Below the pieces are notes generated by a model. It searched no databases. It worked only from the letters and a program-made list of their open reading frames with translations, and was not told the origin of the DNA. The translations under genes and the position numbers were made by a program. Below are positions 1-25,193 of a stretch of 49,865 nt of DNA, piece by piece; positions within the stretch are counted from its first letter, which is position 1, and each line of letters starts with the position of its first letter. Origin of the DNA: Minisyncoccia bacterium (lineage in GTDB: Bacteria; Patescibacteriota; Minisyncoccia; SW-4-49-11); contig JBIKVS010000008.1 in the NCBI GenBank assembly GCA_044356725.1, positions 1 to 49,865 of the forward strand. The letters are read 5' to 3'.

Positions 1-33
1 TTTTACCCTTTCTTCTATATCTATATGTTTCAT
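1..33 (-). CDS. Possible N-terminus of a gene running off the window edge (MKHIDIEERVK...)
   Basis: ATG at 33-31, open to position 1; AT-rich upstream region with a TATAAT-like box. Confidence 0.3.
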   Translation of the reverse strand, partial: MKHIDIEERVK

Positions 34-130
34 ATATTCTATTTCTTAGCTTATTCTTGCCACTACTTATTTATTATATACCCTAGTGGTGCTTTTGATT
101 ATAGAATATGCGATTCCTTAAGAAAAAATT

Positions 131-168
131 ATAAAAACGACTCCCCCTGAGACTAAGTCATCAGGGGG
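131..168 (-). terminator. Intrinsic terminator downstream of the 377-aa ORF
   Basis: CCCCCTGA...TCAGGGGG stem (143-168) followed by a T-tract on the minus strand. Confidence 0.7.
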
Positions 169-249
169 TTGAAAGGACATGGATCAAGTTGTAGTAAATA
201 TTCAGTTTTTCAGACTAACTCCCAGCCTCCAAGGGAGAGTTTTATGGTT

Positions 250-1383
250 TTAGAATCTAAACCCCAACCGGGCTGTGGCAGCTAGGCCATTGCCAGAGGT
301 ACCGACATTGTAGCCGACAACACCCTCGGCATAGGCATTCCTGCCGATACCGACCTGGAGACCACCACCCACTTGGACGTTATGGTAACCAGAGCCAATC
401 TCGCCCCGCACTTCCACGAATGGCTTCAGTTGACCATTTTTGGTCAGGTAATACCGGCCGTAGCCATTTGCATAGGCTCCGGTGTTGTTCACACCGACCT
501 CGGCATAGGCCTCGACTTGAGCCGTACGATACCAGACACCAGCTTGAACATCGTATGCCCAGCCGGACTGTCCGGAGACAGTGGTGGCAGCCTCACCCTT
601 GAGATGAACGGTGAGCTGTTGGCTCTCCGTCCGGATGAGGTCCCGCTCAATGCGAGCACGCAAACCCACTTGGGTGAGGGGCTTGGGAGCATTCTTCCAG
701 GTATAGGAGTAAGGATACTCTGTACCAGGAAGACTCTTACCAGAGCCAGAGTCTTTGTGAGTCAGCTGGCGCACGAAGGCGTTCACTGACCACCGGGTGC
801 GAGCATCTTTGGTGGCTCCATGGCGCCCCACCCAGAATTCTGAGCGGGTGTCAGTGTAATCCCCTTTAAACACATCAGTAGCATTACGACCACTGAACGT
901 GCCCGAAGAGTCCACATGCTGGACTCCGAACATCCAGCCACCCTTGGTGACCAGCTCGGCCTTCACATCGAAGGTCGTATCCCGCGGACGGGAACGGACT
1001 TCCGTGTGAATCCTAATTGGCTTCCATAGCTCCACAGCTTGTTGCTGAGGGAGAGCTCCCTCAGGACGAATCAAGTCCGTCCTGGGAGTTGTGACCAGCT
1101 TCTCCTGAGGATCAGCTGGATCAGGAATTGCCGACATTACGGGCGGCGGACCGGGCTCCGAATCAGCCTGTCCACTAATGCGAGCACGCATAGCTCGCAA
1201 TTCAGCCAACTGCTCTTGAGGAGAAGCTGGCTTGGCCTCAAGAGCAATGGGAGTATTATTGACGACCGCGGAGGTCGCCGATTGAGGGGCTGAAAGCTTC
1301 AACTCCTCCGCCTTGACGCCCATAGGGGCACCAATCAACGGAAAAACCAATGCAAACAGTCCCAAGATGGTACGCTTTTTCAT
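250..1383 (-). CDS. Secreted high-GC protein, predicted outer-membrane beta-barrel-like
   Basis: Signal peptide (MKKRTILGLFALVFPLIGAPMGVKA), Pro-rich linker, many alternating amphipathic strands, C-terminus ...ARLGFRF, AGGAGGT SD upstream. Confidence 0.7.
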   Translation of the reverse strand: MKKRTILGLFALVFPLIGAPMGVKAEELKLSAPQSATSAVVNNTPIALEAKPASPQEQLAELRAMRARISGQADSEPGPPPVMSAIPDPADPQEKLVTTPRTDLIRPEGALPQQQAVELWKPIRIHTEVRSRPRDTTFDVKAELVTKGGWMFGVQHVDSSGTFSGRNATDVFKGDYTDTRSEFWVGRHGATKDARTRWSVNAFVRQLTHKDSGSGKSLPGTEYPYSYTWKNAPKPLTQVGLRARIERDLIRTESQQLTVHLKGEAATTVSGQSGWAYDVQAGVWYRTAQVEAYAEVGVNNTGAYANGYGRYYLTKNGQLKPFVEVRGEIGSGYHNVQVGGGLQVGIGRNAYAEGVVGYNVGTSGNGLAATARLGFRF

Positions 1384-1410
1384 AGCGACCTCCTGAGAAA
1401 GAACTCTCGC

Positions 1411-1439
1411 ATACTAGCATAAAAAGACCATTTTGTCAA
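1411..1439 (-). promoter_or_regulatory. sigma70 promoter for the 377-aa ORF
   Basis: TTGACA-17 nt-TAGTAT with extended TG. Confidence 0.75.
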
Positions 1440-1474
1440 TATATAACAACATCTATACAAAAAGTAAAAGAATA

Positions 1475-1500
1475 AAAAACCCCCACACGAATGCAGGGGT
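1475..1500 (-). terminator. Intrinsic terminator of the 87-aa ORF
   Basis: Minus strand ACCCCTGCA-TTCG-TGTGGGGGT followed by a T-run; G-U pairs make it minus-strand specific. Confidence 0.7.
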
Positions 1501-1534
1501 GGTTGATGGGTGAAGCTTCAGTTGAGGACTAACC

Positions 1535-1798
1535 TCAGCGAAGCTCCACCTGATGGATATAGCCGTACTTCCCGTTGGGAAAGTCGGAAGGGTGCCCCCC
1601 TCCTTTGTAGACGCAGGTCCCGCCATAGCGGGCCTGTGCCTCCTGGCAGGTGTTCACCCCAGAGGGGACGGACAGGGGTTCGCGCCCCGCGACCTCGATG
1701 AGGTCGGGGAGGGCTCCCGCCTGAGACATGGCGGGAGCCATAGCGAAGATTCCGGAAGCCAGCAGGATGCTGGAGAAGATGTTGGTAATGGGTACCAT
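1535..1798 (-). CDS. Small secreted high-GC protein with two Cys
   Basis: Signal peptide ...GIFAMAPAMSQA, GGAG SD, own promoter and terminator. Confidence 0.7.
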   Translation of the reverse strand: MVPITNIFSSILLASGIFAMAPAMSQAGALPDLIEVAGREPLSVPSGVNTCQEAQARYGGTCVYKGGGHPSDFPNGKYGYIHQVELR

Positions 1799-1834
1799 GG
1801 ATGGATTACTCCATTAGGTAGGGTTTACGACGCT

Positions 1835-1863
1835 ACTATAGCATATTTTATCAATTTTGTCAA
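1835..1863 (-). promoter_or_regulatory. sigma70 promoter for the 87-aa ORF
   Basis: TTGACA-17 nt-TATAGT with extended TG. Confidence 0.75.
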
Positions 1864-1874
1864 GAGATTAGAGC

Positions 1875-1906
1875 AAAAAAAATACCGGTAGCTATTTACT
1901 ACCGGC
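1875..1906 (-). terminator. Intrinsic terminator of the 135-aa ORF
   Basis: CCGGTAG/CTACCGG stem (1885-1905) followed by T8 on the minus strand. Confidence 0.75.
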
Positions 1907-1929
1907 TTAAGATAAAATTGATTAAAATA

Positions 1930-2337
1930 TTAATTGCAGAGAATACGGATATGCTTATCCTGGTAGACACATCCAGAATTATTCTGCCAAATCGGCCTAG
2001 GATGACGCCGTTGTTGATTATTATACTGCCAGCCTGGATTTGAATACCTGCTATAAGGAATCGAACGTACATAATGAGTTCTTGTACGACCATCCCATCG
2101 GTCATATTGACAAGAAAGACCTTGTGAATGAACCCATCCACAGGTATCTGTGTTGGGAGGAAGATTATTGGTTAATATTCTTCCATTATAAATGACGGTA
2201 TCTCCCCCAAACTGATTTTGTTGCCAGTGATGGTTATGAGTTGGAGGATAATACCCTCCTCCGTAATTTTGAGCCAAGGCAGAAGAAGGAGTAACCAGTG
2301 AAGCTACTGTCACCAAAGAACAGATTAGCCTTTGCAT
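1930..2337 (-). CDS. Small secreted Gly/Tyr/Asn/Gln-rich protein with Cys pairs
   Basis: Signal peptide MQRLICSLVTVASLVTPSSALA-Q, own promoter and terminator, GC intermediate between its neighbours and the genome. Confidence 0.7.
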   Translation of the reverse strand: MQRLICSLVTVASLVTPSSALAQNYGGGYYPPTHNHHWQQNQFGGDTVIYNGRILTNNLPPNTDTCGWVHSQGLSCQYDRWDGRTRTHYVRSIPYSRYSNPGWQYNNQQRRHPRPIWQNNSGCVYQDKHIRILCN

Positions 2338-2366
2338 GAGAGGAAACCCTATTAGAGTGCTATTTC

Positions 2367-2395
2367 ACCATATCATATATTCACCTGAATATCAA
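2367..2395 (-). promoter_or_regulatory. sigma70 promoter for the 135-aa ORF
   Basis: TTGATA-17 nt-TATGGT with extended TG. Confidence 0.6.
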
Positions 2396-2398
2396 GCC

Positions 2399-2432
2399 AA
2401 AAGAAAAAGCCGCCAGCACTGGACTGGCGGCT
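2399..2432 (-). terminator. Intrinsic terminator of the 275-aa ORF
   Basis: AGCCGCCAG/CTGGCGGCT stem (2408-2432) followed by a T-tract on the minus strand. Confidence 0.8.
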
Positions 2433-2449
2433 AGTTTGTGAATGAGGGG

Positions 2450-3277
2450 TCACTGCGCCTGATAGGCGTAGGGTCCGACGGGAGCCGGGGCATTGCCATC
2501 AAGCTTGATGACGTTACCGCGAAGCCTGGCGGCCCCCACTGTGGACCAGGCTTGGAGCTGATTGCTTCCATTCGCCTTGTAGGCGAATTGGAAGATTTGA
2601 CCCGGCTGGACCGGGAGACACCAGCTATTGCTACTCACCTTGGTGAGGGGAACCACTTGTGCGGATCCGCTTCCTCCATCCACAACCCCGACGGGAGTGG
2701 TGGATGCAAGGAGACGCCCCACATTAACGAGTCCCTTGGGACCGCCAGTGGCAAGGCCAACCCCTGGACGAATGCCCCCAGCTCCCGAGAAGGAGACTGA
2801 GTTCAGCTCCGAGGGGAGCTGAAGGCAAGCCTGCCCCCCTTGCACCGCCACCGTGAAGGAGCTGTTGGCTCCATTGGTGGTGATCGGAGCAACAAGCGCG
2901 AAGGTACGCGCATTTTTGAAGGCCTCCGCACCATCGCAGGCGAGTGCATCACCCTGGCAGTTACCCGCGATGATGCGAGCAGCCCAGCCGGTAGGGATAC
3001 CGTTGAGCTGCTCAACCTTCAGCCAACTCCCGTCTGGACGACGGAAATTGCCAAAGATCGAGGCCGCCCCGATATCCCCGGGGATGGTAACCTTGCCACC
3101 CCGAACGGGATAGCTTTGCCCCCACCCCTGCCCGAAGAGGACAAAGGTGGTGCCATCGGGCACGCCCGATGGGGCTGGGAGAGTATACTCTCTCCCCTGT
3201 GCCATCACAGGAATGGCGATTGCGACGAGGGCCAGAGCGGCCCCAATCAGATTGAAAATGTTCATATGCCGAGGCAT
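2450..3277 (-). CDS. Secreted high-GC beta-rich protein (start may be ATG 3265)
   Basis: Signal peptide ...GAALALVAIAIPVMA-Q, Gly-rich beta strands, four Cys, own promoter and terminator. Confidence 0.75.
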   Translation of the reverse strand: MPRHMNIFNLIGAALALVAIAIPVMAQGREYTLPAPSGVPDGTTFVLFGQGWGQSYPVRGGKVTIPGDIGAASIFGNFRRPDGSWLKVEQLNGIPTGWAARIIAGNCQGDALACDGAEAFKNARTFALVAPITTNGANSSFTVAVQGGQACLQLPSELNSVSFSGAGGIRPGVGLATGGPKGLVNVGRLLASTTPVGVVDGGSGSAQVVPLTKVSSNSWCLPVQPGQIFQFAYKANGSNQLQAWSTVGAARLRGNVIKLDGNAPAPVGPYAYQAQ

Positions 3278-3290
3278 AAGGTTCTGTGTG

Positions 3291-3319
3291 ATAATAGCAT
3301 AAAATAGCTATTTTGTCAA
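3291..3319 (-). promoter_or_regulatory. sigma70 promoter for the 275-aa ORF
   Basis: TTGACA-17 nt-TATTAT with extended TG. Confidence 0.75.
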
Positions 3320-3343
3320 TAAGCAATAAATAGTTTATAATAT

Positions 3344-4615
3344 ATGCATATGAAACAATCTATTGCTATCTTAATTACTAATTTTGAAGGAGGTGGAGCT
3401 CAAAAAGTAGCTCTTACTCATGCCTATATGTTTCAAAATTTAGGTTATAATGTACATATAATAGCTATTGAGCATCAAGAGTCATATCATATTCCTGATG
3501 ATTTTTCAGTGCATTTTTTAAGTTCTATGCAAGGACAGGGTTCAAAATTAAAAAAATTACTACTATCCCCTACTTTACCCTTTAAGTTAGCTAATTATCT
3601 TAAAAAGAATAAAATTAATCTCTGTATTAGCCATCTTGAAAGAGCTGATTTTGTAAATATATTAGCTAAATTTATTAATAAACATAAAACTATTGCTGTT
3701 ATTCATTCTCATCTTACTTCCACTTATAAAACTGAAAAGATTTCATTTAGTCGTATGGCTTATAAAATTTTAGTGCAGATATTAGAGCCTTTCAACAATA
3801 AAATTATAGCTGTCTCTAATGGTATTGCCGATGATTTGATTCGACTAGGATTACCTAAAAACAAAATACAAGTCATTCTAAATCCATTTGATATCAATTA
3901 TATCAGACATCAAGCTCAGGTTCAATTAGAAAAATATGTAGAAATTTTTAATAATGACACTATTATTTCAATTGGAAGATTATCTAATCAGAAAGGATTA
4001 TGGCATAGTATACTTGCTTTTAATCAAATAAAAAAATCTAATCCTACTCTAAAATACATAATCCTAGGGGATGGTCCATTACGAGAATATCATCTAAAAT
4101 TAGCCAATGATTTAGGTTTATCTGTTTATAATATATGGGATCAGGAGCAAGTATTCTCACCAGAAAATGATGTGTTTTTCCTAGGATTTCAAGCTAATCC
4201 ATTTCAATTTATAGATAAATCTAAAATACTAATACTACCGTCTCATTTTGAGGGTTTGCCCAATGTACTTGTAGAGAGCTTGATTATAGGTACACCTGTT
4301 ATTGCTACTGATGTGGATGCAGGACCTCGTGAATTACTAGCCCCAAATACGGATATTAACTATAAGACTAAATCTTTAGAAAAAGCTGAGTACGGTATTA
4401 TTGTTCCCGTTGATACAAATCAATTTCTAAAATTAGATTATTCAAAATTATCTACATCGGAAGAATATATTAAAAAAGCTATTGATTTACTATTAAATAA
4501 TCAACATTTAAGAGATACTTATATAAATAAATCTAAGACTAGAGTTAATGATTTTGCAATAGAGCGAATTATTCCTCAGTGGAAGACACTTCTGGAGTCT
4601 GTTTTGAGTAAATAG
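3344..4615 (+). CDS. Glycosyltransferase family 4 (GT-B)
   Basis: GGGAQKV, IGRLSNQKG, GFQANPF and EGLPNVLVE motifs. Confidence 0.9.
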   Translation: MHMKQSIAILITNFEGGGAQKVALTHAYMFQNLGYNVHIIAIEHQESYHIPDDFSVHFLSSMQGQGSKLKKLLLSPTLPFKLANYLKKNKINLCISHLERADFVNILAKFINKHKTIAVIHSHLTSTYKTEKISFSRMAYKILVQILEPFNNKIIAVSNGIADDLIRLGLPKNKIQVILNPFDINYIRHQAQVQLEKYVEIFNNDTIISIGRLSNQKGLWHSILAFNQIKKSNPTLKYIILGDGPLREYHLKLANDLGLSVYNIWDQEQVFSPENDVFFLGFQANPFQFIDKSKILILPSHFEGLPNVLVESLIIGTPVIATDVDAGPRELLAPNTDINYKTKSLEKAEYGIIVPVDTNQFLKLDYSKLSTSEEYIKKAIDLLLNNQHLRDTYINKSKTRVNDFAIERIIPQWKTLLESVLSK

Positions 4616-5978
4616 TATAATATTTAAAAGCAACTCCCAATATAGCAAAGAATATCCACATCACTGCTGTTTGACGCAATAAATTATCCCAAATACTAGA
4701 CAGATATATAGATACAGTTATAAATGTTACAATTAATAAAAATGTGTCTTGCTTTGAGTAAATTCTTATAGCTAGGCTATATAAAATAGATATAATAAAT
4801 AAAATATAAGTTACTAACCCCAAAACTCCCATTTCAACAAATATTTTGATATAGTCATTATGTACTTCTAATGAACCTAGAGACACTCCTCTAACCTCCT
4901 CTACAATAGTCTCAATAGTTCCTGTCCCAAATCCAGTCAATGGCTGTGTAAGTGCCTTATTATACATATCTGACCACATAACTTGTCTCCAAATTATAGA
5001 ATCACTAGGGTCTCCGTTGAATAATCCAACAATCCTAGCAATAATTGGTATATCTTCTATTGGTGTTAATTCATACAAAATGGTTTGTTGTAGCCAAAAA
5101 TATGTTGATAATAATATAGTTATAATGGGTATCATTAAACTAGTATAGATAATAGTTTTTTTAGGGAATTTTATCAAGCCAACTCCTATCAATAATATAA
5201 ATAGTCCAATCCAGGCACCTCTTGTATAGGTAGCTATAAGCAATATAGTTAATAAAATACCATAGACTATAAAAATATATTTTATGGTATTATTAAGAAG
5301 ATTTTTTTCAAATAATAAATATACCAATAAAGATATTATAATCAATAGAAAATACCCTAAAACATTTGGATGGCCAAAAGTACCAGCAATACGATTTTCA
5401 AAGCCTGGATTAGTGTATAGACCTGATCCATTAAAAAGCTGTATATAACCTACTGTGGTAGGAATTATTGATGAGGCAATGACAATTTTAATAAAATTAA
5501 TACAATCTAATCGAGACTGTATTATAATATAACCTGTGAAATACATAATTAAAAATGATAATACCCTTACAAGTTCGTTAATAGATATTATTGGATAATT
5601 TGATAGCCCAGAAAATAATATATATACACAAAATAATAATATAAATATAAAACTCAATGGGATTGAAAATATATATTGCTTGGATTTATATATAATAATT
5701 AAGCTAACTATAATAGATAAAGTAGCGACTAAACCAGCAATGTTAATAGATGTAAACTCCGGAAATAAAGTAAGACTATATTGACCAAAAATATCTAAAG
5801 AAGGTCTAATTAGTAATAAGAAGTAGAATAAAATATTTATAGATAATCTAAATAAAGTTAGTATCAATATAAAAGTAGCAATGAAAATAAATGTTGCTAT
5901 ATTACTATTCAAAAATAATGCCAATATTCCTATTACTCCCCCCAACACCAAAATAATCTTAGAATTTATTTGAGTCAT
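4569..5978 (-). CDS. O-antigen ligase/polymerase (Wzy_C/WaaL-like) membrane protein
   Basis: Many TM helices; RIAGTFGHPN, TYTRGAW, GFGTG and HNDY motifs. Confidence 0.9.
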   Translation of the reverse strand: MTQINSKIILVLGGVIGILALFLNSNIATFIFIATFILILTLFRLSINILFYFLLLIRPSLDIFGQYSLTLFPEFTSINIAGLVATLSIIVSLIIIYKSKQYIFSIPLSFIFILLFCVYILFSGLSNYPIISINELVRVLSFLIMYFTGYIIIQSRLDCINFIKIVIASSIIPTTVGYIQLFNGSGLYTNPGFENRIAGTFGHPNVLGYFLLIIISLLVYLLFEKNLLNNTIKYIFIVYGILLTILLIATYTRGAWIGLFILLIGVGLIKFPKKTIIYTSLMIPIITILLSTYFWLQQTILYELTPIEDIPIIARIVGLFNGDPSDSIIWRQVMWSDMYNKALTQPLTGFGTGTIETIVEEVRGVSLGSLEVHNDYIKIFVEMGVLGLVTYILFIISILYSLAIRIYSKQDTFLLIVTFITVSIYLSSIWDNLLRQTAVMWIFFAILGVAFKYYTIYSKQTPEVSSTEE

Positions 5979-6711
5979 ATTCAGTGTCTGGGGTAATAGT
6001 TGGAGTTGGTTCTAGATTAATCACAGGGTTTTGAGCTAGTTCAACATCATCAGGAATTGGTGGAGAAGCTATATCGTCAACTCCAAAATCATATATAATT
6101 GCTTGATCTCTGCGACTGACTACATAGGCTATAGCTACAATAAATCCTAATATAGCTGATCCAAATAAATTAAGAATTATATTAGGTCTACCCACTCCTT
6201 CATACAGAGCTGGCTGATTTACTACTTGTATATCAGCAGTCTCTCCTAAGAGAGACTTAGCCTGATCAGTTAATTTATTCACCACTATTTTATTCATATT
6301 GAGAGCCAATTCAGATGATTTATCATAAGTATCTACTGAGATAAAACCAGTTCCCCTAGACCTTGCAACTATATTTCTTGCAAATAAAGTTCGTCTATCT
6401 TTTAAATTATCTGGAAATAAATTTTTAATCTCTGCACTTTCTGTAGCAAAATTAGTGAAAAATACATCAGTGTAAACTAAATCTATAAGCAAGTTCACAC
6501 TTGCATCAACCGATCTTTGAGCTGTATAAGAGTCAATATTAGGGTTGGCTTTTTGTAAAACTACTAGTTGTGATTCTGCTCTATACTGTTTTGGTAAGAC
6601 TAAAGTAATTCCTAAACCAACTAAAGTAAATAGCAAAGTTATAATTACAATTGTATTAAATTTTCTTTGTATTTTAGTAGCTATTTCAACAAGAGTTAGA
6701 TTGGAATTCAT
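5959..6711 (-). CDS. Polysaccharide chain-length determinant (Wzz/CapA-like)
   Basis: Two TM helices; PKQYRA after TM1; RPN before the Gly-rich TM2. Confidence 0.8.
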   Translation of the reverse strand: MNSNLTLVEIATKIQRKFNTIVIITLLFTLVGLGITLVLPKQYRAESQLVVLQKANPNIDSYTAQRSVDASVNLLIDLVYTDVFFTNFATESAEIKNLFPDNLKDRRTLFARNIVARSRGTGFISVDTYDKSSELALNMNKIVVNKLTDQAKSLLGETADIQVVNQPALYEGVGRPNIILNLFGSAILGFIVAIAYVVSRRDQAIIYDFGVDDIASPPIPDDVELAQNPVINLEPTPTITPDTEYDSNKF

Positions 6712-12203: not shown

Positions 12204-12275
12204 TGTCCGATCGTCTAATTGGTAGGACGACAGGTTTTGGTCCTGTTAATCTAGGTTCGAGTCCTGGTCGGACAA
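12204..12275 (+). tRNA. tRNA-Gln (TTG), CCA not encoded
   Basis: Acceptor stem TGTCCGA/TCGGACA, anticodon arm ACAGG-TT-TTG-GT-CCTGT, T-loop GTTCGAG. Confidence 0.95.
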
Positions 12276-21649: not shown

Positions 21650-23425
21650 TTAGACCTCTATAATCACCGGTATAATCATTGGCCTTCTATGAGTGGTTTT
21701 GAATAGGAATAAACCTAAATCTTCTCGAATAGCTTGTTGTAAATATTCAATACTTTGATTCTCACCCCCCTTGGCTAATTTTTGCTCAATATTTTCTCTA
21801 ACTTTTTCTTTAATAGAATCTAGTAATTTAGTCGAAGTTTGAATATGTACAAAACCTTTAGATACTATTTCTGGGTCTCTTATAATTTTAGCTTGCTGTA
21901 AATTTAATAGTATAACAATAGTCAAAATTCCATCTTGAGCTAAAGATTGCCTATCTCTAATAACAACTTCTTTTAAGTCACCTACTCCTAGACCATCAAC
22001 CATCATATTGCTGGCATTGACTTTCTCAGTAGTTACTCTTGCTTCACCTTTATACACCTGAATTACTCTTCCATTATCTGTGAGTAGGATATTATCTCTT
22101 GACATACCAACTTCTTGTGCTAAATCTGAATGTGATTTGAGAGCATAAAAATCTCCATAAATAGGTTGTAAATATTTGGGACGAATGATTTCTAATAACT
22201 GCTTTAAGTCGTCCTTATGAGCATGCCCAGACACATGAACTTCCATCATTTTCCAGTGAATAATATTGGCTCTTTGTTTAGCTAATGCATCTTTAATTTT
22301 TTGTACCGATTCTTCATTCCCAGGCACCACAGAGGATGAAAATACCACCGTATCTCCCGGTTCAATTTGAAAGTTACGATGCTCTTTATTAGCCATTCTA
22401 GTTAAGGCTGACCTCTCATCTCCTTGAGCTCCCGTACAGATTATTGTTAAATTCTCGGCTGGCATTTTACTAGCCTCCTGAGCGGTAATTATAGTCTGTG
22501 GAGAGAATTTAGCATAGCCTATTTCATGTAAAATCTGAATATTAGTTTTCATACTAAATCCCTCAATTACTACTTTACGATTATACTTCTCAGATAAATT
22601 AATCATTTGCTGAATACGGTTCAAAGTACTAGAAAAAGTAGTCACAATAATTTTACCCGTAGCATTCTCAAATATATGGTCAATATTATTCTGAATAGTC
22701 ATTTCAGATACTAATCTACCTGGTTTAAAGGCACTAGTACTGTCTGAGAGTAACAATAATACTCCTTCATCTCCAATTTTTTTATACATTTCTAAGTCTG
22801 CTGGGGCTTCTCCAACAGGAGTTGCATCAATCTTAAAATCTCCTGTATGTAGAATCACACCTTCTGGAGTTTCAATTTTGATCATAGTTGAATCTGGAAT
22901 GCTATGATTAATATGCAAAAATGTAACTGTAAAGACTCCAAATCTCAACTTTTCATTAAGTTTAGCAACATGTCCATTCAGTGAAGGTAAATTGGTAAAT
23001 TCACTTTGTCTTCTTTGCATCATAGCTAAAGGTAAGGCTGGAGCATAAATAGGAGGATTTCCAATCATAGACATTACTTGAGAAACTCCTCCAATATGAT
23101 CCATATGTCCATGAGTAATCAAAACAGCTCTAATATTATCTTCCTTACCCTTAAAATAGCTAGGGTTAGGGATAATATAATCAATTCCAGGTTGATCCTC
23201 TTCTGGGAATTTCATACCGATATCTATTACAAGAATATCTTTACCGTATTCTATTACGGTCATATTTCTTCCTCCAATTTCTTCAGACCCACCTAAGGGA
23301 ATAATTTTTAAAATATTATCTTTCGTATCAAATGGTTCTTTAGCATTAAGATACTGGTCAGCTTTGTGGCTTAAATCCTTCACAAAGGTAGTTCCTCTTT
23401 TCATCTTAGAGTTATTAGCTTTCAT
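21650..23425 (-). CDS. rnj: Ribonuclease J, catalytically intact
   Basis: THGHMDH, HSIPD, HTGDFK and HVSGH; ATG 23425 is the likely start. Confidence 0.95.
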   Translation of the reverse strand: MKANNSKMKRGTTFVKDLSHKADQYLNAKEPFDTKDNILKIIPLGGSEEIGGRNMTVIEYGKDILVIDIGMKFPEEDQPGIDYIIPNPSYFKGKEDNIRAVLITHGHMDHIGGVSQVMSMIGNPPIYAPALPLAMMQRRQSEFTNLPSLNGHVAKLNEKLRFGVFTVTFLHINHSIPDSTMIKIETPEGVILHTGDFKIDATPVGEAPADLEMYKKIGDEGVLLLLSDSTSAFKPGRLVSEMTIQNNIDHIFENATGKIIVTTFSSTLNRIQQMINLSEKYNRKVVIEGFSMKTNIQILHEIGYAKFSPQTIITAQEASKMPAENLTIICTGAQGDERSALTRMANKEHRNFQIEPGDTVVFSSSVVPGNEESVQKIKDALAKQRANIIHWKMMEVHVSGHAHKDDLKQLLEIIRPKYLQPIYGDFYALKSHSDLAQEVGMSRDNILLTDNGRVIQVYKGEARVTTEKVNASNMMVDGLGVGDLKEVVIRDRQSLAQDGILTIVILLNLQQAKIIRDPEIVSKGFVHIQTSTKLLDSIKEKVRENIEQKLAKGGENQSIEYLQQAIREDLGLFLFKTTHRRPMIIPVIIEV

Positions 23426-23426
23426 A

Positions 23427-25193
23427 TTAAACATTAATTATTATTGGTAAAATCATTGGTCTTCTTTCAGTTTTGGTCAACAGCAATCTAGATATATTTT
23501 CTCTCACTTCATCTCTCACATAATCTAAGTTAACTTCATCAGATTCTTGAATTAAAGTAGTAATGATCAATCTTGCTTGTTCTTTAATTTCATCAAATAA
23601 TTTGGATGATGATTCATTATCTACAAAACCTTTAGACTCTAAGACTATATCATTTAACATACTCCTAGATTGCAAATCCACCAAAGCAATAATATGTAAT
23701 ATACCTTCCTCTGCCATAGATTTTCTGTCGTGAATAACTACATTAGTTAAATCTCCAACTCCAAGACCATCTACAATTATATCTGAAGCTGGTACTTTTT
23801 CTGGAGTAATTCTTCTCTGCTTATAGTCAAATAGTATTACTTTGCCATTCATACCTACTACAACATTACGGTCTGGATAACCTCCTTTAATCGCAATATC
23901 TCCATTGGATCTTAGTAAGTGATGAGACCCTGTAATAGGAATATAATATTTTGGCCTTACAGCTTTTAGTACAGCCAAAGTATCTTCATATCTAGCATAG
24001 GATCCATATCTAGTATCTAATTCCTGATAATATTCTACAAAAGCTCCTAATTTAGCAAAGTTATCATTAACTTTTGATACAGATCTAGCATTTCCTGGAA
24101 CCAAATCAGCTGGATACACTACAATGTCACCAGTCTGAATGCTAAAGGCCTGATGGTCTCCATTAGCCAGTCTCATTAAATGAGGAATATCATCTCCATG
24201 AGAACCAGCAATTAATACTACCAACTTTTCTCTTGGTATCTCAGACAAGCCACTCGGACCAACAATAGTTCCGGATTTTATCTTAATAAGTCCTTTTTTA
24301 CGAGATGTATTAAATGTATTAAGTAAACTCTTACCTTCAATGAATAGATGTTTATTATTACTTTCTACCGAATTTACAATTTGCTGCATTCTACTAATCA
24401 TCGATGGGAAAGTAGAAATATAAACTGTACCTGTGTTTTTAGCAATAATTGAATTGATATGTGACTCTATGGATGCTTCTGTAGGTGCAAATCCTTGCGA
24501 TTCACTAGCCACACTACCGGTTAATAAGGCAAAGGCATCTGAGCCAGCTAAATCTCTAATATAATCTAATAACTCTGATTTATCTGATGTTTTACTATCT
24601 AATTTATAACTAGATAAGTAAAAAACTTTACCCTGCATAGTATATACACATAGTCCAATAGATCCAATCACATTAAATGGGGTTGGGAAAACATTAACTT
24701 TAAATGACCCCACTCTAATTGAATTATATGGTTTGATAATATGTTTTTTATACTTTATACCTTGCGAATAAAAGTCATGCCGAGACTCTAAAATAGCAAA
24801 TAAAGCCTCAGTGGCATAAATGTGCAGGTTAGGGAATAAATGCAAAAGATAAGGCACCGCTCCAATATGGTCTGGATGTGGAGAAGTTAGTACAACTCCT
24901 TTAACTTTACTAATATTATTTTTAAGATATTGAGTATTAGGAATAAGATAATCAATTCCAGGTTGATTCACTCCCGGCATTTGAAGCCCCATATCTATAA
25001 TAAGAATATCATTTTCTTGTTCCAAAATATACATATTCTTACCAACTCCATCTAATCCTCCCAAAGGAATTATCTTCAGAGCTTGTCTGGAAGTCTCAGG
25101 AATTGTTCTTTTTTGGGCAAAATTTTTACCCTGAGCACGTGAACGATTAGTACGTACATTTGCTTTAGTATGAAATCTTTTTGATTGCATCAT
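23427..25193 (-). CDS. Ribonuclease J paralog with degenerate active site
   Basis: IIPLGGL, DGLGVGD and RRPMILP retained; metal ligands replaced (SPHPDH, LSSYK, YGSY). Confidence 0.9.
   Translation of the reverse strand: MMQSKRFHTKANVRTNRSRAQGKNFAQKRTIPETSRQALKIIPLGGLDGVGKNMYILEQENDILIIDMGLQMPGVNQPGIDYLIPNTQYLKNNISKVKGVVLTSPHPDHIGAVPYLLHLFPNLHIYATEALFAILESRHDFYSQGIKYKKHIIKPYNSIRVGSFKVNVFPTPFNVIGSIGLCVYTMQGKVFYLSSYKLDSKTSDKSELLDYIRDLAGSDAFALLTGSVASESQGFAPTEASIESHINSIIAKNTGTVYISTFPSMISRMQQIVNSVESNNKHLFIEGKSLLNTFNTSRKKGLIKIKSGTIVGPSGLSEIPREKLVVLIAGSHGDDIPHLMRLANGDHQAFSIQTGDIVVYPADLVPGNARSVSKVNDNFAKLGAFVEYYQELDTRYGSYARYEDTLAVLKAVRPKYYIPITGSHHLLRSNGDIAIKGGYPDRNVVVGMNGKVILFDYKQRRITPEKVPASDIIVDGLGVGDLTNVVIHDRKSMAEEGILHIIALVDLQSRSMLNDIVLESKGFVDNESSSKLFDEIKEQARLIITTLIQESDEVNLDYVRDEVRENISRLLLTKTERRPMILPIIINV

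What the first reader, a model, noticed from the sequence alone, without database searches (positions are those of the whole stretch)
131..3320. Tandem array of four self-contained GC-enriched secreted-protein cassettes in an AT-rich CPR-like genome
Seen in sequence: four co-oriented units, each with a 17-nt-spaced sigma70 promoter, short leader, signal-peptide ORF and intrinsic terminator. Three ORFs are about 55-60% GC (one hand-counted 60-mer was 35/60) against roughly 30% for the rest; the fourth is intermediate. No integrase, transposase, att site or terminal repeat is visible. The four proteins are unrelated and I recognise none. An ordinary horizontally acquired block would carry foreign intergenic DNA, but here the spacers and promoters look native. 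Inference: a dedicated class of host-directed effector or mimicry genes. The P-x-x-A-Q style signal peptides remind me of cyanobacterial ones, which might hint at the host; this is an impression only.
Basis: partly seen in the sequence, partly recalled or inferred. Interest (0 to 1): 0.85.

Follow-up and report, generated by a model that had tools for sequence, protein, structure and literature searches.

The report
GC-rich surface-protein cassettes in a Parcubacterium
A tiny, AT-rich lake bacterium of the Parcubacteria carries a swap-prone row of small stand-alone genes for exported proteins, one of them shaped like an outer-membrane pore, whose DNA stays oddly GC-rich in every related species examined that has them.

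Summary
On the minus strand of window 131-3320 lie four monocistronic units (promoter, signal-peptide ORF, terminator). A, B and D are 56-62% GC (GC3 .57-.77) and C is 42%, in a 33% GC genome (GC3 mean .24).

It is not an assembly chimera. Contigs from three other lake metagenomes bridge the GC boundary. The same block sits between the same two glycosyltransferase genes in 8 of 9 same-genus genomes whose locus I read.

- **A** is predicted as a 14-strand outer-membrane-type beta-barrel ending in Phe, yet the genome has no Omp85/BamA, LpxC or secretin.
- **D** is two beta-sandwich domains.
- No Pfam or NCBIfam family matches, and the A family forms only 5 clusters among 1.84 billion representatives.

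The locus is hypervariable. The A tree conflicts with the flank tree (two A types, about 30% identical), D is 93% identical between species whose neighbouring gene is 66% identical, and the B slot holds unrelated ORFs. The AT-rich promoter/terminator spacers are conserved throughout.

GC-richness belongs to the payload ORFs only. It is not the translational optimum here (ribosomal proteins GC3 .14-.25), and no GC-rich donor context was found.

Best reading: a recombination-shuffled surface/contact-protein locus whose composition is actively maintained. Host targeting is inferred, not shown.

The parts
1..112 (.). AT-rich multi-copy repeat at the contig end; the reason the assembly breaks just downstream of cassette A
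   Evidence: 97% identical copies at the ends of contigs C3, C6, C14 and C15. Summed contig depth at 1-200 is 18-138, against 5-10 on the island where it is covered.
131..168 (-). Intrinsic terminator of cassette A (GC stem 168-143, T-run 137-133)
   Evidence: Read by eye; not picked up by the scan.
250..1383 (-). ORF A, 377 aa: signal peptide, about 95 aa of disordered Pro/Gln-rich linker with one helix (55-70), then a 14-strand outer-membrane-type beta-barrel (about 121-377) ending ...GFRF
   Evidence: GC .56, GC3 .57. AF2 pLDDT 83-94 over 121-377. VIA Z 16.1 to FadL and 15.9 to OmpG, and all 50 listed hits are membrane beta-barrels, nearly all bacterial outer-membrane proteins. Foldseek agrees. 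Strands are amphipathic. dN/dS is .23-.26 against type-1 relatives. No Pfam or NCBIfam family matches.
1411..1439 (-). Promoter of A: TTGACA-17-TAGTAT with TG extension
   Evidence: Conserved in G002, G009 and G005.
1479..1500 (-). Terminator of cassette B
   Evidence: Conserved across species.
1535..1798 (-). ORF B, 87 aa, signal peptide, 2 Cys; occupies a variable slot
   Evidence: GC .62, GC3 .77. The same slot holds unrelated signal-peptide ORFs in relatives. Only a sub-threshold Pfam match. An antisense ORF at 1553-1891(+) is judged spurious: it has no promoter or terminator and a lower GC3 of .53.
1835..1863 (-). Promoter of B: TTGACA-17-TATAGT with TG extension
   Evidence: Conserved in 6 genomes, although the ORFs downstream differ.
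1884..1906 (-). Terminator of cassette C
1930..2337 (-). ORF C, 135 aa, signal peptide, rich in N/Q/Y/W/R with 5 Cys; intermediate GC
   Evidence: GC .42, GC3 .31. Recognised at the locus in 9 of the 10 genomes read, and the only island gene left in G001. 24 lineage-restricted homologs.
2367..2395 (-). Promoter of C: TTGATA-17-TATGGT with TG extension
2408..2432 (-). Terminator of cassette D
2450..3277 (-). ORF D, 275 aa (most homologs start at its Met5, i.e. ATG at 3265): signal peptide plus two beta-sandwich domains (27-134, 138-275)
   Evidence: GC .61, GC3 .65. AF2 pLDDT 77.5. Only weak, generic matches to CBM/Ig-like folds, Z <= 6.5. 31 lineage-restricted homologs. dN/dS is .13-.21.
3291..3319 (-). 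Promoter of D: TTGACA-17-TATTAT with TG extension. It overlaps the divergent promoter of the glycosyltransferase gene (3313-3341, +).
3344..6711 (.). Native AT-rich flank: GT4 glycosyltransferase (3344-4615 +), Wzy/O-antigen-ligase-like (4569-5978 -) and Wzz-like (5959-6711 -)
   Evidence: Pfam. GC3 .16-.20.

Best explanation
This is a genus-specific, hypervariable locus for exported cell-surface or contact proteins, set inside a surface-glycan (Wzz/Wzy/GT4) gene cluster of a lake Parcubacterium.

Structure. It is built from stand-alone expression cassettes. The AT-rich scaffolds (an intrinsic terminator followed by a consensus sigma-70 promoter with extended -10) are native and conserved between species. 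The ORFs between them are exchangeable payloads.

Exchange. Payload alleles are swapped among species of the genus. The likely route is homologous recombination in the conserved spacers after DNA uptake, since ComEC is present (inferred).

Products. In this genome the payloads are:
- A, a Sec-exported 14-strand outer-membrane-type beta-barrel on a long disordered Pro-rich tether.
- B and C, two small Cys-containing exported proteins.
- D, a two-beta-sandwich protein.

Function (inferred). The genome has no Omp85/BamA, LpxC or secretin. The most likely place for the barrel to work is therefore the outer membrane of a diderm partner cell, as an anchor or a solute conduit at the contact site. D and B would be binding modules. 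The variability would reflect frequency-dependent selection by partners and/or phages.

Composition (the force is inferred). High GC and GC-type codon usage are properties of payloads A, B and D only. They are found in every allele and every context seen. This probably goes back to a foreign, GC-richer diderm origin at the base of the genus, and it has since been held by a gene-specific force against AT-biased mutation. I think that force is selection on the nucleotide or codon make-up of these transcripts, of unknown purpose.
For: Real and chromosomal. The window carries the S10/spc ribosomal operon, EF-Tu and SecY. Contigs from three other runs bridge 3300: X5 83-3377, X6 3165-3630 and X8 3165-3445. 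A GC-rich gene block lies between GT393 and GT423 (or its type-b replacement) in 8 of the 9 other genus genomes whose locus I read, all away from contig ends. All 4 of the 4 JGI contigs with D show the same AT-spacer/GC-payload pattern.

Protein-coding. dN/dS is .13-.26 for A and D, and both give confident AF2 folds.

Outer-membrane-type barrel. VIA Z is 16.4-15.9 to 14-strand barrels, and all 50 listed hits are membrane beta-barrels, nearly all bacterial outer-membrane proteins. Foldseek gives 133 hits at E <= .001, and the listed ones are outer-membrane barrels. The strands are amphipathic. 25 of 26 aligned members end in Phe. Omp85, LpxC and secretin were not found in the 99%-complete genome, while the control genomes ring.

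Lineage-restricted. The A profile finds 8 of 11 other genus genomes and 0 of 5 genomes from other genera of the family. The single A protein finds 0 of 29 genomes of other genera. Only 5 clusters match among 1.84 billion representatives.

Shuffling. The flank tree gives {G002,G005,G000,G001,G004} against {G007,G008,G009,G010,G003}. The A tree gives {G000,G002,G007,G008,G009} against {G003,G010,G004,G005}. Both splits have 100/100 support. G002 and G005 are 94% identical in the flanks but 29% in A. D of G002 and G008 is 93% identical while GT423 is 66%. The B slot holds at least 4 unrelated ORF kinds behind the same promoter. G001 keeps only C. ComEC is present at E 1e-53.

Payload-specific GC. 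Payload GC3 is .44-.77. It is .29-.36 for C.14-.25 for the flanks and for the equally shuffled Wzy alleles, and the spacers are 23-45% GC. Ribosomal proteins and EF-Tu have GC3 .14-.25, so this is not the local translational optimum. Third positions in the island are A .11, C .35, G .28, T .27, against A .37, C .10, G .13, T .41 in bulk genes; TTA and ATA are at 0%.

Long residence. Type-1 A alleles differ by dS of about .8-1.3 yet sit between conserved native spacers. Their divergence therefore took place in AT-rich genomes.
Against: - No expression data exist. No listed run is on record as RNA.
- No partner organism is known, so host-membrane insertion is pure inference. The barrel could instead sit in an unrecognised outer layer of the cell itself.
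- The nature of the force that keeps GC high is unknown.
- Recent changes in the A gene between G010 and G003 run GC->AT 9 to AT->GC 2, with 13 more sites unpolarised. This shows AT-biased input and is also what simple decay predicts.
- My longer-range polarisation is ambiguous, because G000 may be the outgroup of the D alleles.
- Type-2 A alleles are less GC-rich (GC3 .44-.50) than type-1 (.54-.62), which could be partial amelioration.
- The third-position spectrum looks like ordinary genes of a 55-60% GC bacterium (my recall of such genomes), which fits a foreign source as well as in-place selection.
- Several other GC-rich cassettes are species-specific, at 0 of 11 genus genomes. This hints at continuing influx or fast turnover.
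- Signal peptides were judged by eye only.
Confidence: 0.5

Rival explanations
1. External GC-rich reservoir. The payloads are repeatedly imported from an unsampled GC-rich source (a host bacterium or a mobile element) into a recombination hot spot, and each copy then decays. High GC would be residual donor composition and would not be maintained.
For: - The codon spectrum resembles a normal 55-60% GC genome (the comparison is from recall).
- Recent changes are GC->AT biased, 9 to 2.
- GC3 varies among alleles from .44 to .77.
- Other GC-rich cassettes are species-specific.
- ComEC gives a route for foreign DNA.
- An outer-membrane barrel must ultimately come from a diderm.
Against: - No homolog turned up outside the lineage. 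There are 39, 31 and 24 word-index hits for A, D and C, all 40% or more identical and unnamed. Only 5 clusters match in 1.84 billion representatives by profile.
- None was found in viral contigs.
- Every context I could read (9 genomes and 4 metagenome contigs) has AT-rich native spacers.
- Divergent alleles sit precisely between conserved spacers. Repeated outside imports would not reproduce this.
Confidence: 0.17
2. GC-biased gene conversion. Frequent recombination at this hot spot drives GC up, without selection on the genes.
For: The locus is demonstrably recombining. All three codon positions and the amino-acid make-up are shifted towards GC: GC1 .62-.64 and GC2 .49-.54 against .43 and .33 in bulk genes, and Gly+Ala+Pro+Arg is 36% against 19%.
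Against: - Gene C lies in the middle of the block and is also allelic, yet it stays at GC3 .29-.36 in all 9 genomes that have it.
- The Wzy alleles shuffled in the same hot spot are AT-rich, with GC3 .17-.25.
- The spacers are AT-rich.
- An effect of this size is, to my knowledge, not described in bacteria (recall).
Confidence: 0.08
3. Same locus, different function. The proteins serve the cell's own envelope (an S-layer-like or sheath component, or a channel in an unrecognised outer layer). Their variability would be driven by phages, as at O-antigen loci, and not by a host.
For: The locus is embedded in a Wzz/Wzy/GT4 cluster. Wzy shows two allele types as well. The long N-terminal tether with a conserved helix is reminiscent of wall-tethered porins; OmpM appears in the fold list at Z 10.4.
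Against: There is no Omp85, LpxC or secretin. Patescibacteria are described as monoderm, for example in the title of PMC12102498 (search listing only). No SLH or other wall-binding domain was detected.
Confidence: 0.22
4. Assembly or binning chimera that joins GC-rich foreign DNA to an AT-rich contig end.
For: The block lies at the very start of contig C2. Contig depth on the block is slightly higher than on the flank, 6.5-9.6 against 3.4-8.2.
Against: Bridging contigs exist in three other runs. The block lies away from contig ends in the other genus genomes read, among them contigs of 425, 299, 253 and 132 kb. The AT-rich spacers between the GC-rich ORFs carry the genome's own promoter motif.
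Confidence: 0.01

Closest known systems
14-strand outer-membrane channels (OmpG, FadL/TodX, CymA) and autotransporter beta-domains
   Same: Predicted closed amphipathic beta-barrel of matching size: VIA Z 15.9-16.4, rmsd 4.0-4.8 over 222-267 residues. It has a C-terminal Phe and an N-terminal export signal.
   Different: There is no sequence relationship to any Pfam or PDB family. The producing genome lacks the Omp85 insertase and LPS synthesis. There is no plug domain or passenger, only about 95 disordered residues.
Wall-tethered porins of deep-branching diderms (OmpM of Negativicutes; SLH-porins of cyanobacteria, Deinococcus-Thermus)
   Same: The layout is signal peptide, N-terminal segment, short helix, extended linker, then barrel. 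OmpM1 is in the fold list at Z 10.4.
   Different: No SLH domain was detected. The family description is from my own knowledge and was not tested further.
Hypervariable surface loci exchanged through conserved flanks (O-antigen and capsule loci; variable porin/adhesin genes of Neisseria and the like)
   Same: It lies between conserved genes of a glycan cluster, has deeply divergent allele types that do not follow the species tree, and shows mosaic content.
   Different: The units here are single promoter-ORF-terminator cassettes with conserved scaffolds. The payloads are strongly GC-rich, whereas such loci are typically AT-rich relative to their genome (recall).
Horizontally acquired genomic islands with atypical GC (amelioration model of Lawrence and Ochman 1997, cited in PMC12455944; passages seen)
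   Same: Composition and codon usage are atypical, and distribution is patchy within the genus.
   Different: There are no mobility genes, tRNA site or direct repeats at the block. The intergenic DNA is native. The composition has not converged despite dS of about 1 between alleles held in AT-rich genomes.
Integron gene cassettes
   Same: A row of co-oriented, exchangeable single-gene units.
   Different: Each unit has its own promoter and terminator. No integrase is among the 49 window ORFs scanned. attC sites were not searched for.

Membership tests
Outer-membrane beta-barrel proteins (OMP fold) | Closed antiparallel beta-barrel resembling solved OMPs | tested here: met
   AF2 pLDDT 83-94 over residues 121-377. 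VIA Z up to 16.4, and all 50 listed hits are membrane beta-barrels, nearly all bacterial outer-membrane proteins. Foldseek agrees. The strand number (14) is inferred from 15 DSSP elements and from the best-matching folds.
Outer-membrane beta-barrel proteins (OMP fold) | Amphipathic strands with a hydrophobic lipid-facing side | tested here: met
   About 10 of 15 predicted strands have one face with mean hydropathy of at least +1 and the other face negative.
Outer-membrane beta-barrel proteins (OMP fold) | C-terminal beta-signal ending in an aromatic residue (consensus recalled) | tested here: met
   25 of 26 aligned members end in Phe, mostly ...G-F/I/L-R/K-F; the one exception has a C-terminal extension.
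Outer-membrane beta-barrel proteins (OMP fold) | The producing cell has an Omp85/BamA insertase and an outer membrane | tested here: not met
   PF01103, PF03331 (LpxC) and PF00263 (secretin) were not found in the 99.3%-complete genome; the controls ring in 7, 5 and 6 of 14 genomes.
Outer-membrane beta-barrel proteins (OMP fold) | Membership in a curated OMP sequence family | tested here: not met
   0 Pfam families at E <= .1 for any of the 26 members. No NCBIfam family. No PDB sequence hit below E .3.
Sec-exported proteins (type I signal peptide) | Positively charged n-region, hydrophobic h-region and an AXA-like cleavage site | not testable with these tools
   Seen by eye in all four ORFs, and the N-termini have low pLDDT. 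No predictor was available. SecY is present in the window.
Recently acquired genomic island | Mobility genes, a tRNA or att site, or direct repeats at the borders | tested here: not met
   None among the 49 window ORFs scanned. The only tRNA is at 12204. Caveat: there is an unexplained multi-copy repeat at 1-112.
Recently acquired genomic island | Identifiable donor lineage with homologs | tested here: not met
   Searches found relatives only in this lineage.
Hypervariable surface locus exchanged by flanking homology | Divergent alleles incongruent with the species tree, between conserved flanks | tested here: met
   The species tree is approximated by two flanking proteins only.
Integron cassette array | IntI integrase, attC sites and promoterless cassettes | tested here: not met
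   No integrase in the window. Every cassette has its own promoter. attC was not searched for.
Structured non-coding RNA genes (the usual reason for GC-rich islands in AT-rich genomes) | Match to an RNA family, with no coding signal | tested here: not met
   No Rfam match at E <= .01 in the block or in 9 other cassettes. A and D show purifying selection on the protein.

The most novel reading that the evidence does not exclude
The payloads may be made for, or even in, a GC-rich diderm partner. Their codon usage is kept tuned to the partner's translation system. The universal sigma-70 promoter, Sec signal and C-terminal beta-signal would let the partner's own machinery (ribosomes, Sec, BAM) express the barrel and mount it in the partner's outer membrane after nucleic-acid transfer from the epibiont. 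That would be a T-DNA-like strategy between bacteria. A milder form of the same idea is that the protein is exported by the Parcubacterium and inserts from outside into the partner's outer membrane as a feeding pore.
Probability: 0.04. Interest if true: 0.97.

Novelty: new variant of a known kind. Interest (0 to 1): 0.68.

Why it matters
How Patescibacteria (CPR) cells attach to other cells and feed from them is largely unknown, and for lake Parcubacteria even the partners are unknown.

- **Candidate contact proteins.** This locus offers concrete, testable candidates: an outer-membrane-type pore made by a cell that lacks the known machinery for such proteins, and binding-module-like partners, all in a swap-prone array.
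- **A test case for genome composition.** Genes have stayed 25-30 points richer in GC than their genome, with a foreign-looking codon usage, through species-level divergence and while sitting between native, conserved promoters. This bears on whether base composition in bacteria is set by mutation alone or by selection or conversion acting gene by gene.
- **A practical marker.** The conserved AT-rich scaffold with a GC-rich payload could be used to find similar genes in other reduced genomes.

Tried and rejected
- **RNA evidence.** No RNA holder is listed for window 1-6000, so expression is untested.
- **Metagenome scans.** The scan with the A profile found nothing. The second scan, with D, gave 4 short contigs.
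- **Viral contigs.** The scans with A and with D gave no relative. These scans rely on a few peptide patterns.
- **Genome contigs.** The scan gave only 2 loci.
- **Protein families.** Pfam and NCBIfam gave nothing for A-D, and PDB sequence profiles gave nothing. Pfam gave nothing above cut-off for 10 other GC-rich or neighbouring cassette ORFs scanned.
- **Rfam.** Nothing on the block or on 9 other cassettes.
- **D's fold.** Only generic beta-sandwich matches at Z <= 6.5, so no function is assigned.
- **Atlas look-alikes of the barrel.** Generic OMP clusters with 132-151 shared features, taken as leads only.
- **Cluster look-up.** It returned no organism names.
- **Vertical inheritance, withdrawn.** My first reading was strict vertical inheritance with co-divergence, based. 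I withdrew it after the tree and identity matrices.
- **Polarised substitution counts on the G000 branch**. I set these aside as evidence: the rooting is ambiguous, and parsimony is biased at this divergence.
- **tRNA set.** The genome has 39 tRNAs, including G34 and C34 species. This does not discriminate between the hypotheses.
- **Literature.** Five searches found no report of GC-rich cassette islands or OMP-type barrels in CPR. I read passages of PMC12455944 and PMC9166423; their supplements were not seen and might list such genes.
- **Not run.** Complex prediction was not used, because no binding claim is made.

Full report

Yes. The window is the first 49,865 bases of contig C2 of an 897-kb, 20-contig, 33.1% GC genome.

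GC rises to .42-.64 between about 100 and 3300 and is .25-.35 beyond. The rest of the window is .26-.36 per kb.

Four ORFs lie on the minus strand:
- A, 250-1383, 377 aa.
- B, 1535-1798, 87 aa.
- C, 1930-2337, 135 aa.
- D, 2450-3277, 275 aa.

Their GC is 56.0, 62.5, 41.7 and 61.0%. The spacers between them are 23-45%. Among 872 crude ORFs of the genome, GC3 averages .243 (SD .082). D (.652) and A (.571) rank 2nd and 5th, and B reaches .77.

Each ORF is preceded by a sigma-70-type promoter with a 17-nt spacer and a TG extension. Three of them are followed by a terminator that the scan finds. A's terminator I read by eye.

All four N-termini look like type I signal peptides. This is by inspection only, because no predictor was available.

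**2. Not an artefact, and part of the core chromosome.**

The window also holds the S10/spc ribosomal-protein operon, EF-Tu, SecY, RF1 and two RNase J genes.

The stretch 1-6000 is held by 20 runs labelled lake-water, aquatic, marine or plain metagenome. Contigs from three runs that are not flagged as the source bridge the GC boundary: X5 83-3377, X6 3165-3630 and X8 3165-3445.

The contig ends at 1-112 in an AT-rich repeat. The same repeat ends four other contigs, and its depth is several-fold higher. That explains why the assembly breaks there.

**3. Relatives.**

With the single A protein, 6 of 11 other genomes of the genus match, and 0 of 29 genomes of other genera. With a profile, 8 of 11 genus genomes match and 0 of 5 genomes of other genera of the family.

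One relative is titled 'Parcubacteria group bacterium'.

I read the locus in nine other genus genomes.
- In eight of them a GC-rich block (GC .49-.64, GC3 .44-.71) lies between the same native genes. On one side is a 393-aa GT4 glycosyltransferase. On the other is the 423-aa GT4 gene or, in G003, G010 and G004, a different 354-355-aa gene next to a type-b Wzy. The native genes have GC3 .14-.30. The block is away from contig ends in all eight, on contigs of 21 to 425 kb.
- In the ninth, G001, only gene C remains.

In G000 the 393-aa gene is on contig C8. It is preceded there by two further cassettes, one of them 50% GC and ending ...NASFKF. The island is therefore probably longer than the window shows.

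Four JGI metagenome contigs that carry D show the same alternation of AT-rich spacers and GC-rich ORFs.

**4. What the proteins are.**

None of the four has a Pfam or NCBIfam family; B has one match below the cut-off.

*Protein A.*
- It has 39 database relatives, but only 5 clusters among 1.84 billion representatives by profile search.
- AlphaFold2 with a 26-sequence alignment gives pLDDT 83-94 for residues 121-377, all beta. Residues 1-57 and 70-119 are disordered, and there is one helix at 55-70.
- Foldseek returns outer-membrane barrels in all the hits it lists.
- VIA-align against 48,161 chains gives Z 16.4-15.9 to 14-strand barrels: FadL 1t16 at Z 16.1, rmsd 4.0, 256 residues, and OmpG 2f1c at Z 15.9. 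All 50 listed hits are membrane beta-barrels, nearly all bacterial outer-membrane proteins.
- The strands alternate hydrophobic and polar faces.
- 25 of 26 family members end in Phe.
- Yet Omp85/BamA, LpxC and secretin are not found in this 99.3%-complete genome, while they ring in the control genomes.

*Protein D.* It has 31 relatives. It folds as two beta-sandwich domains at pLDDT 77.5. Its matches to carbohydrate-binding and Ig-like modules are weak and generic, with Z <= 6.5.

*Protein C.* It has 24 relatives and a native-like composition.

*The B slot.* In every genome read that has it, the slot holds a signal-peptide ORF on the island strand, but the ORFs are of at least four unrelated kinds. 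In G002, G008 and G009 the ORF is a paralog of D's first domain.

dN/dS of .13-.26 confirms that A and D are coding. No Rfam family matches.

**5. How the locus evolves.**

My first reading was vertical descent. dS is .8-1.3 in the island against 1.0-2.5 in the flanks. That reading did not survive a tree test.
- A tree of the two flanking proteins (GT393 plus a 708-aa protein) splits the genomes into {G002,G005,G000,G001,G004} and {G007,G008,G009,G010,G003}.
- The A tree splits them into {G000,G002,G007,G008,G009} and {G003,G010,G004,G005}. Both splits have 100/100 support.
- G002 and G005 are 94% identical in the flanks and 29% in A.
- G008 and G009 are 97% identical in the flanks and 61% in A.
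- D is 93% identical between G002 and G008, whose GT423 proteins are 66% identical.
- The neighbouring Wzy gene also has two allele types that cross the species split.

In contrast, the spacers (terminator plus promoter) align well across species, even where the ORFs beside them are not homologous.

So the scaffolds are conserved and the payloads are exchanged. Exchange by recombination in the spacers after DNA uptake is my inference; ComEC is present at E 1e-53.

**6. The composition puzzle.**

High GC is a property of payloads A, B and D alone.
- C, in the middle of the block, stays at GC3 .29-.36 in all nine genomes that have it.
- The Wzy alleles, shuffled in the same hot spot, stay at .17-.25.
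- The spacers are AT-rich.

This argues against a regional cause such as biased gene conversion.

It is also not the local translational optimum. 13 ribosomal proteins, EF-Tu and SecY have GC3 .14-.25. The island all but drops A-ending codons: third-position A is .11 against .37, TTA and ATA are at 0%, and AGA is 5% against 61%.

The promoter type is the genome's own, with 20 sites, some of them before ordinary genes.

Type-1 A alleles differ by dS of about 1 but sit between conserved native spacers, so they diverged inside AT-rich genomes. I made a rough two-state calculation, assuming an equilibrium GC3 of .2. It predicts that such a gene would have lost well over half of its excess GC3 in that time. 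It has not. Hence some force maintains the composition.

The input of mutations is AT-biased. Between the near-identical G010 and G003, polarised changes in A run GC->AT 9 and AT->GC 2, with 13 sites unpolarised. This fits mutation-selection balance, but it also fits simple decay. A longer-range polarisation is ambiguous and I do not rely on it.

The alternative is repeated import from an unsampled GC-rich reservoir. It is weakened by two things. No homolog was found outside the lineage, and every allele sits precisely in the native scaffold. It is not excluded.

**7. A wider class.**

My heuristic (GC >= .44, a promoter within 150 nt and a terminator within 90 nt) finds 11 such units in the genome. 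B and D are among them; A is missed because its terminator lies further away.

None of the other units has a Pfam or Rfam match, and not all have signal peptides. Conservation was tested for three of them:
- C10:28901-29419 (61% GC): 0 of 11 other genus genomes.
- C8:33972-34433: 0 of 11.
- C6:24214-24747: 3 of 11, and GC-rich in two of those (G004 and G005) whose loci I profiled.

For these units, coding status is unproven.

**8. Mechanism, with what is shown and what is inferred.**

Shown:
- The cassette anatomy.
- Native, conserved scaffolds.
- GC-rich payloads that are exchanged between species.
- An outer-membrane-type barrel fold for A.
- No hits for Omp85, LpxC or secretin, three markers of outer-membrane biogenesis.
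- Restriction to this lineage.

Inferred:
- Export by Sec.
- Function at the interface with a diderm partner: the barrel in the partner's outer membrane, tethered by the Pro-rich linker, with D and B as binding modules.
- Diversifying pressure from partners or phages.
- Selection keeping GC high.

A self-envelope role driven by phages is the main functional rival.

**9. Comparison with what is known.**

The nearest kinds are 14-strand outer-membrane channels (fold only), wall-tethered porins (layout only), O-antigen-like hypervariable loci (evolutionary mode) and atypical-GC islands (composition).

The locus fails defining features of each. There is no sequence-family membership and no BamA. 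There is no SLH domain. Its GC is high, where such loci are typically low. There are no mobility genes and no donor.

Five literature searches and passages of two papers gave no report of such a locus in CPR.

**10. Verdict.**

This is a real and unusual feature. I class it as a new variant of a known kind, a recombination-shuffled surface-protein locus. It has two surprising traits: an outer-membrane-type barrel in a genome without the known machinery for such proteins, and a foreign-looking base composition that is specific to the payloads and has persisted. Interest .68.

Noticed in passing
window 1-112; also the ends of genome contigs C3, C6, C14 and C15: An AT-rich repeat of about 112-125 nt (97% identical copies) ends five contigs, with several-fold higher depth in lake metagenomes. 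It is probably the edge of a multi-copy element that breaks the assembly, and in this genome it sits just downstream of cassette A.
   Followed up: partly
G000 contigs, e.g. C13:27150-27500, C15:49500-52600, C4:14800-15250, C20:47200-47600: A dispersed family of GC-rich (about 50-55%) repeats of roughly 120-170 nt with about 25-31 copies. They create spurious ORFs with recurring peptide strings. They look like REP/MITE elements and have no Rfam match in the pieces tested.
   Followed up: partly
G000 C8:33972-34433 (-) and C8:34560-34885 (-): Two more stand-alone cassettes lie upstream of the 393-aa glycosyltransferase that flanks the island in relatives. One is 50% GC, has a signal peptide and ends ...NASFKF (a possible small barrel), and is not found in 11 other genus genomes. 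The island probably continues onto this contig.
   Followed up: partly
G000 C10:28901-29419 (+): A 172-aa ORF at 61% GC (GC3 .69) behind the same promoter type. It contains an internal tandem duplication of about 70 aa, has no signal peptide and has no relative in 11 genus genomes. Whether it is coding is unproven.
   Followed up: partly
G000 C6:24214-24747 (+), next to the rRNA operon: A GC-rich (57%) cassette that matches in 3 of 11 genus genomes and is also GC-rich in G004 and G005. In G005 the match carries an internal TAA.
   Followed up: partly
window 4569-5978 (Wzy-like) and its counterparts in relatives: The Wzy-like gene and the gene next to it exist as two deeply divergent allele sets (42-46% identity) that cross the species split, as at O-antigen loci. 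Both sets are AT-rich.
   Followed up: partly
window 21650-25193: Two adjacent RNase J paralogs (594 and 588 aa).
   Followed up: no
G000 genome, tRNA set: ARAGORN reports a tRNA-Ile with anticodon TAT and one tRNA-like call of undetermined type, among 39 tRNAs.
   Followed up: no
window about 3165-3190: Logan contigs of two independent runs (X6, X8) both break and overlap here, inside the 5' part of D. This may be a strain-level branch point or a recombination junction.
   Followed up: no
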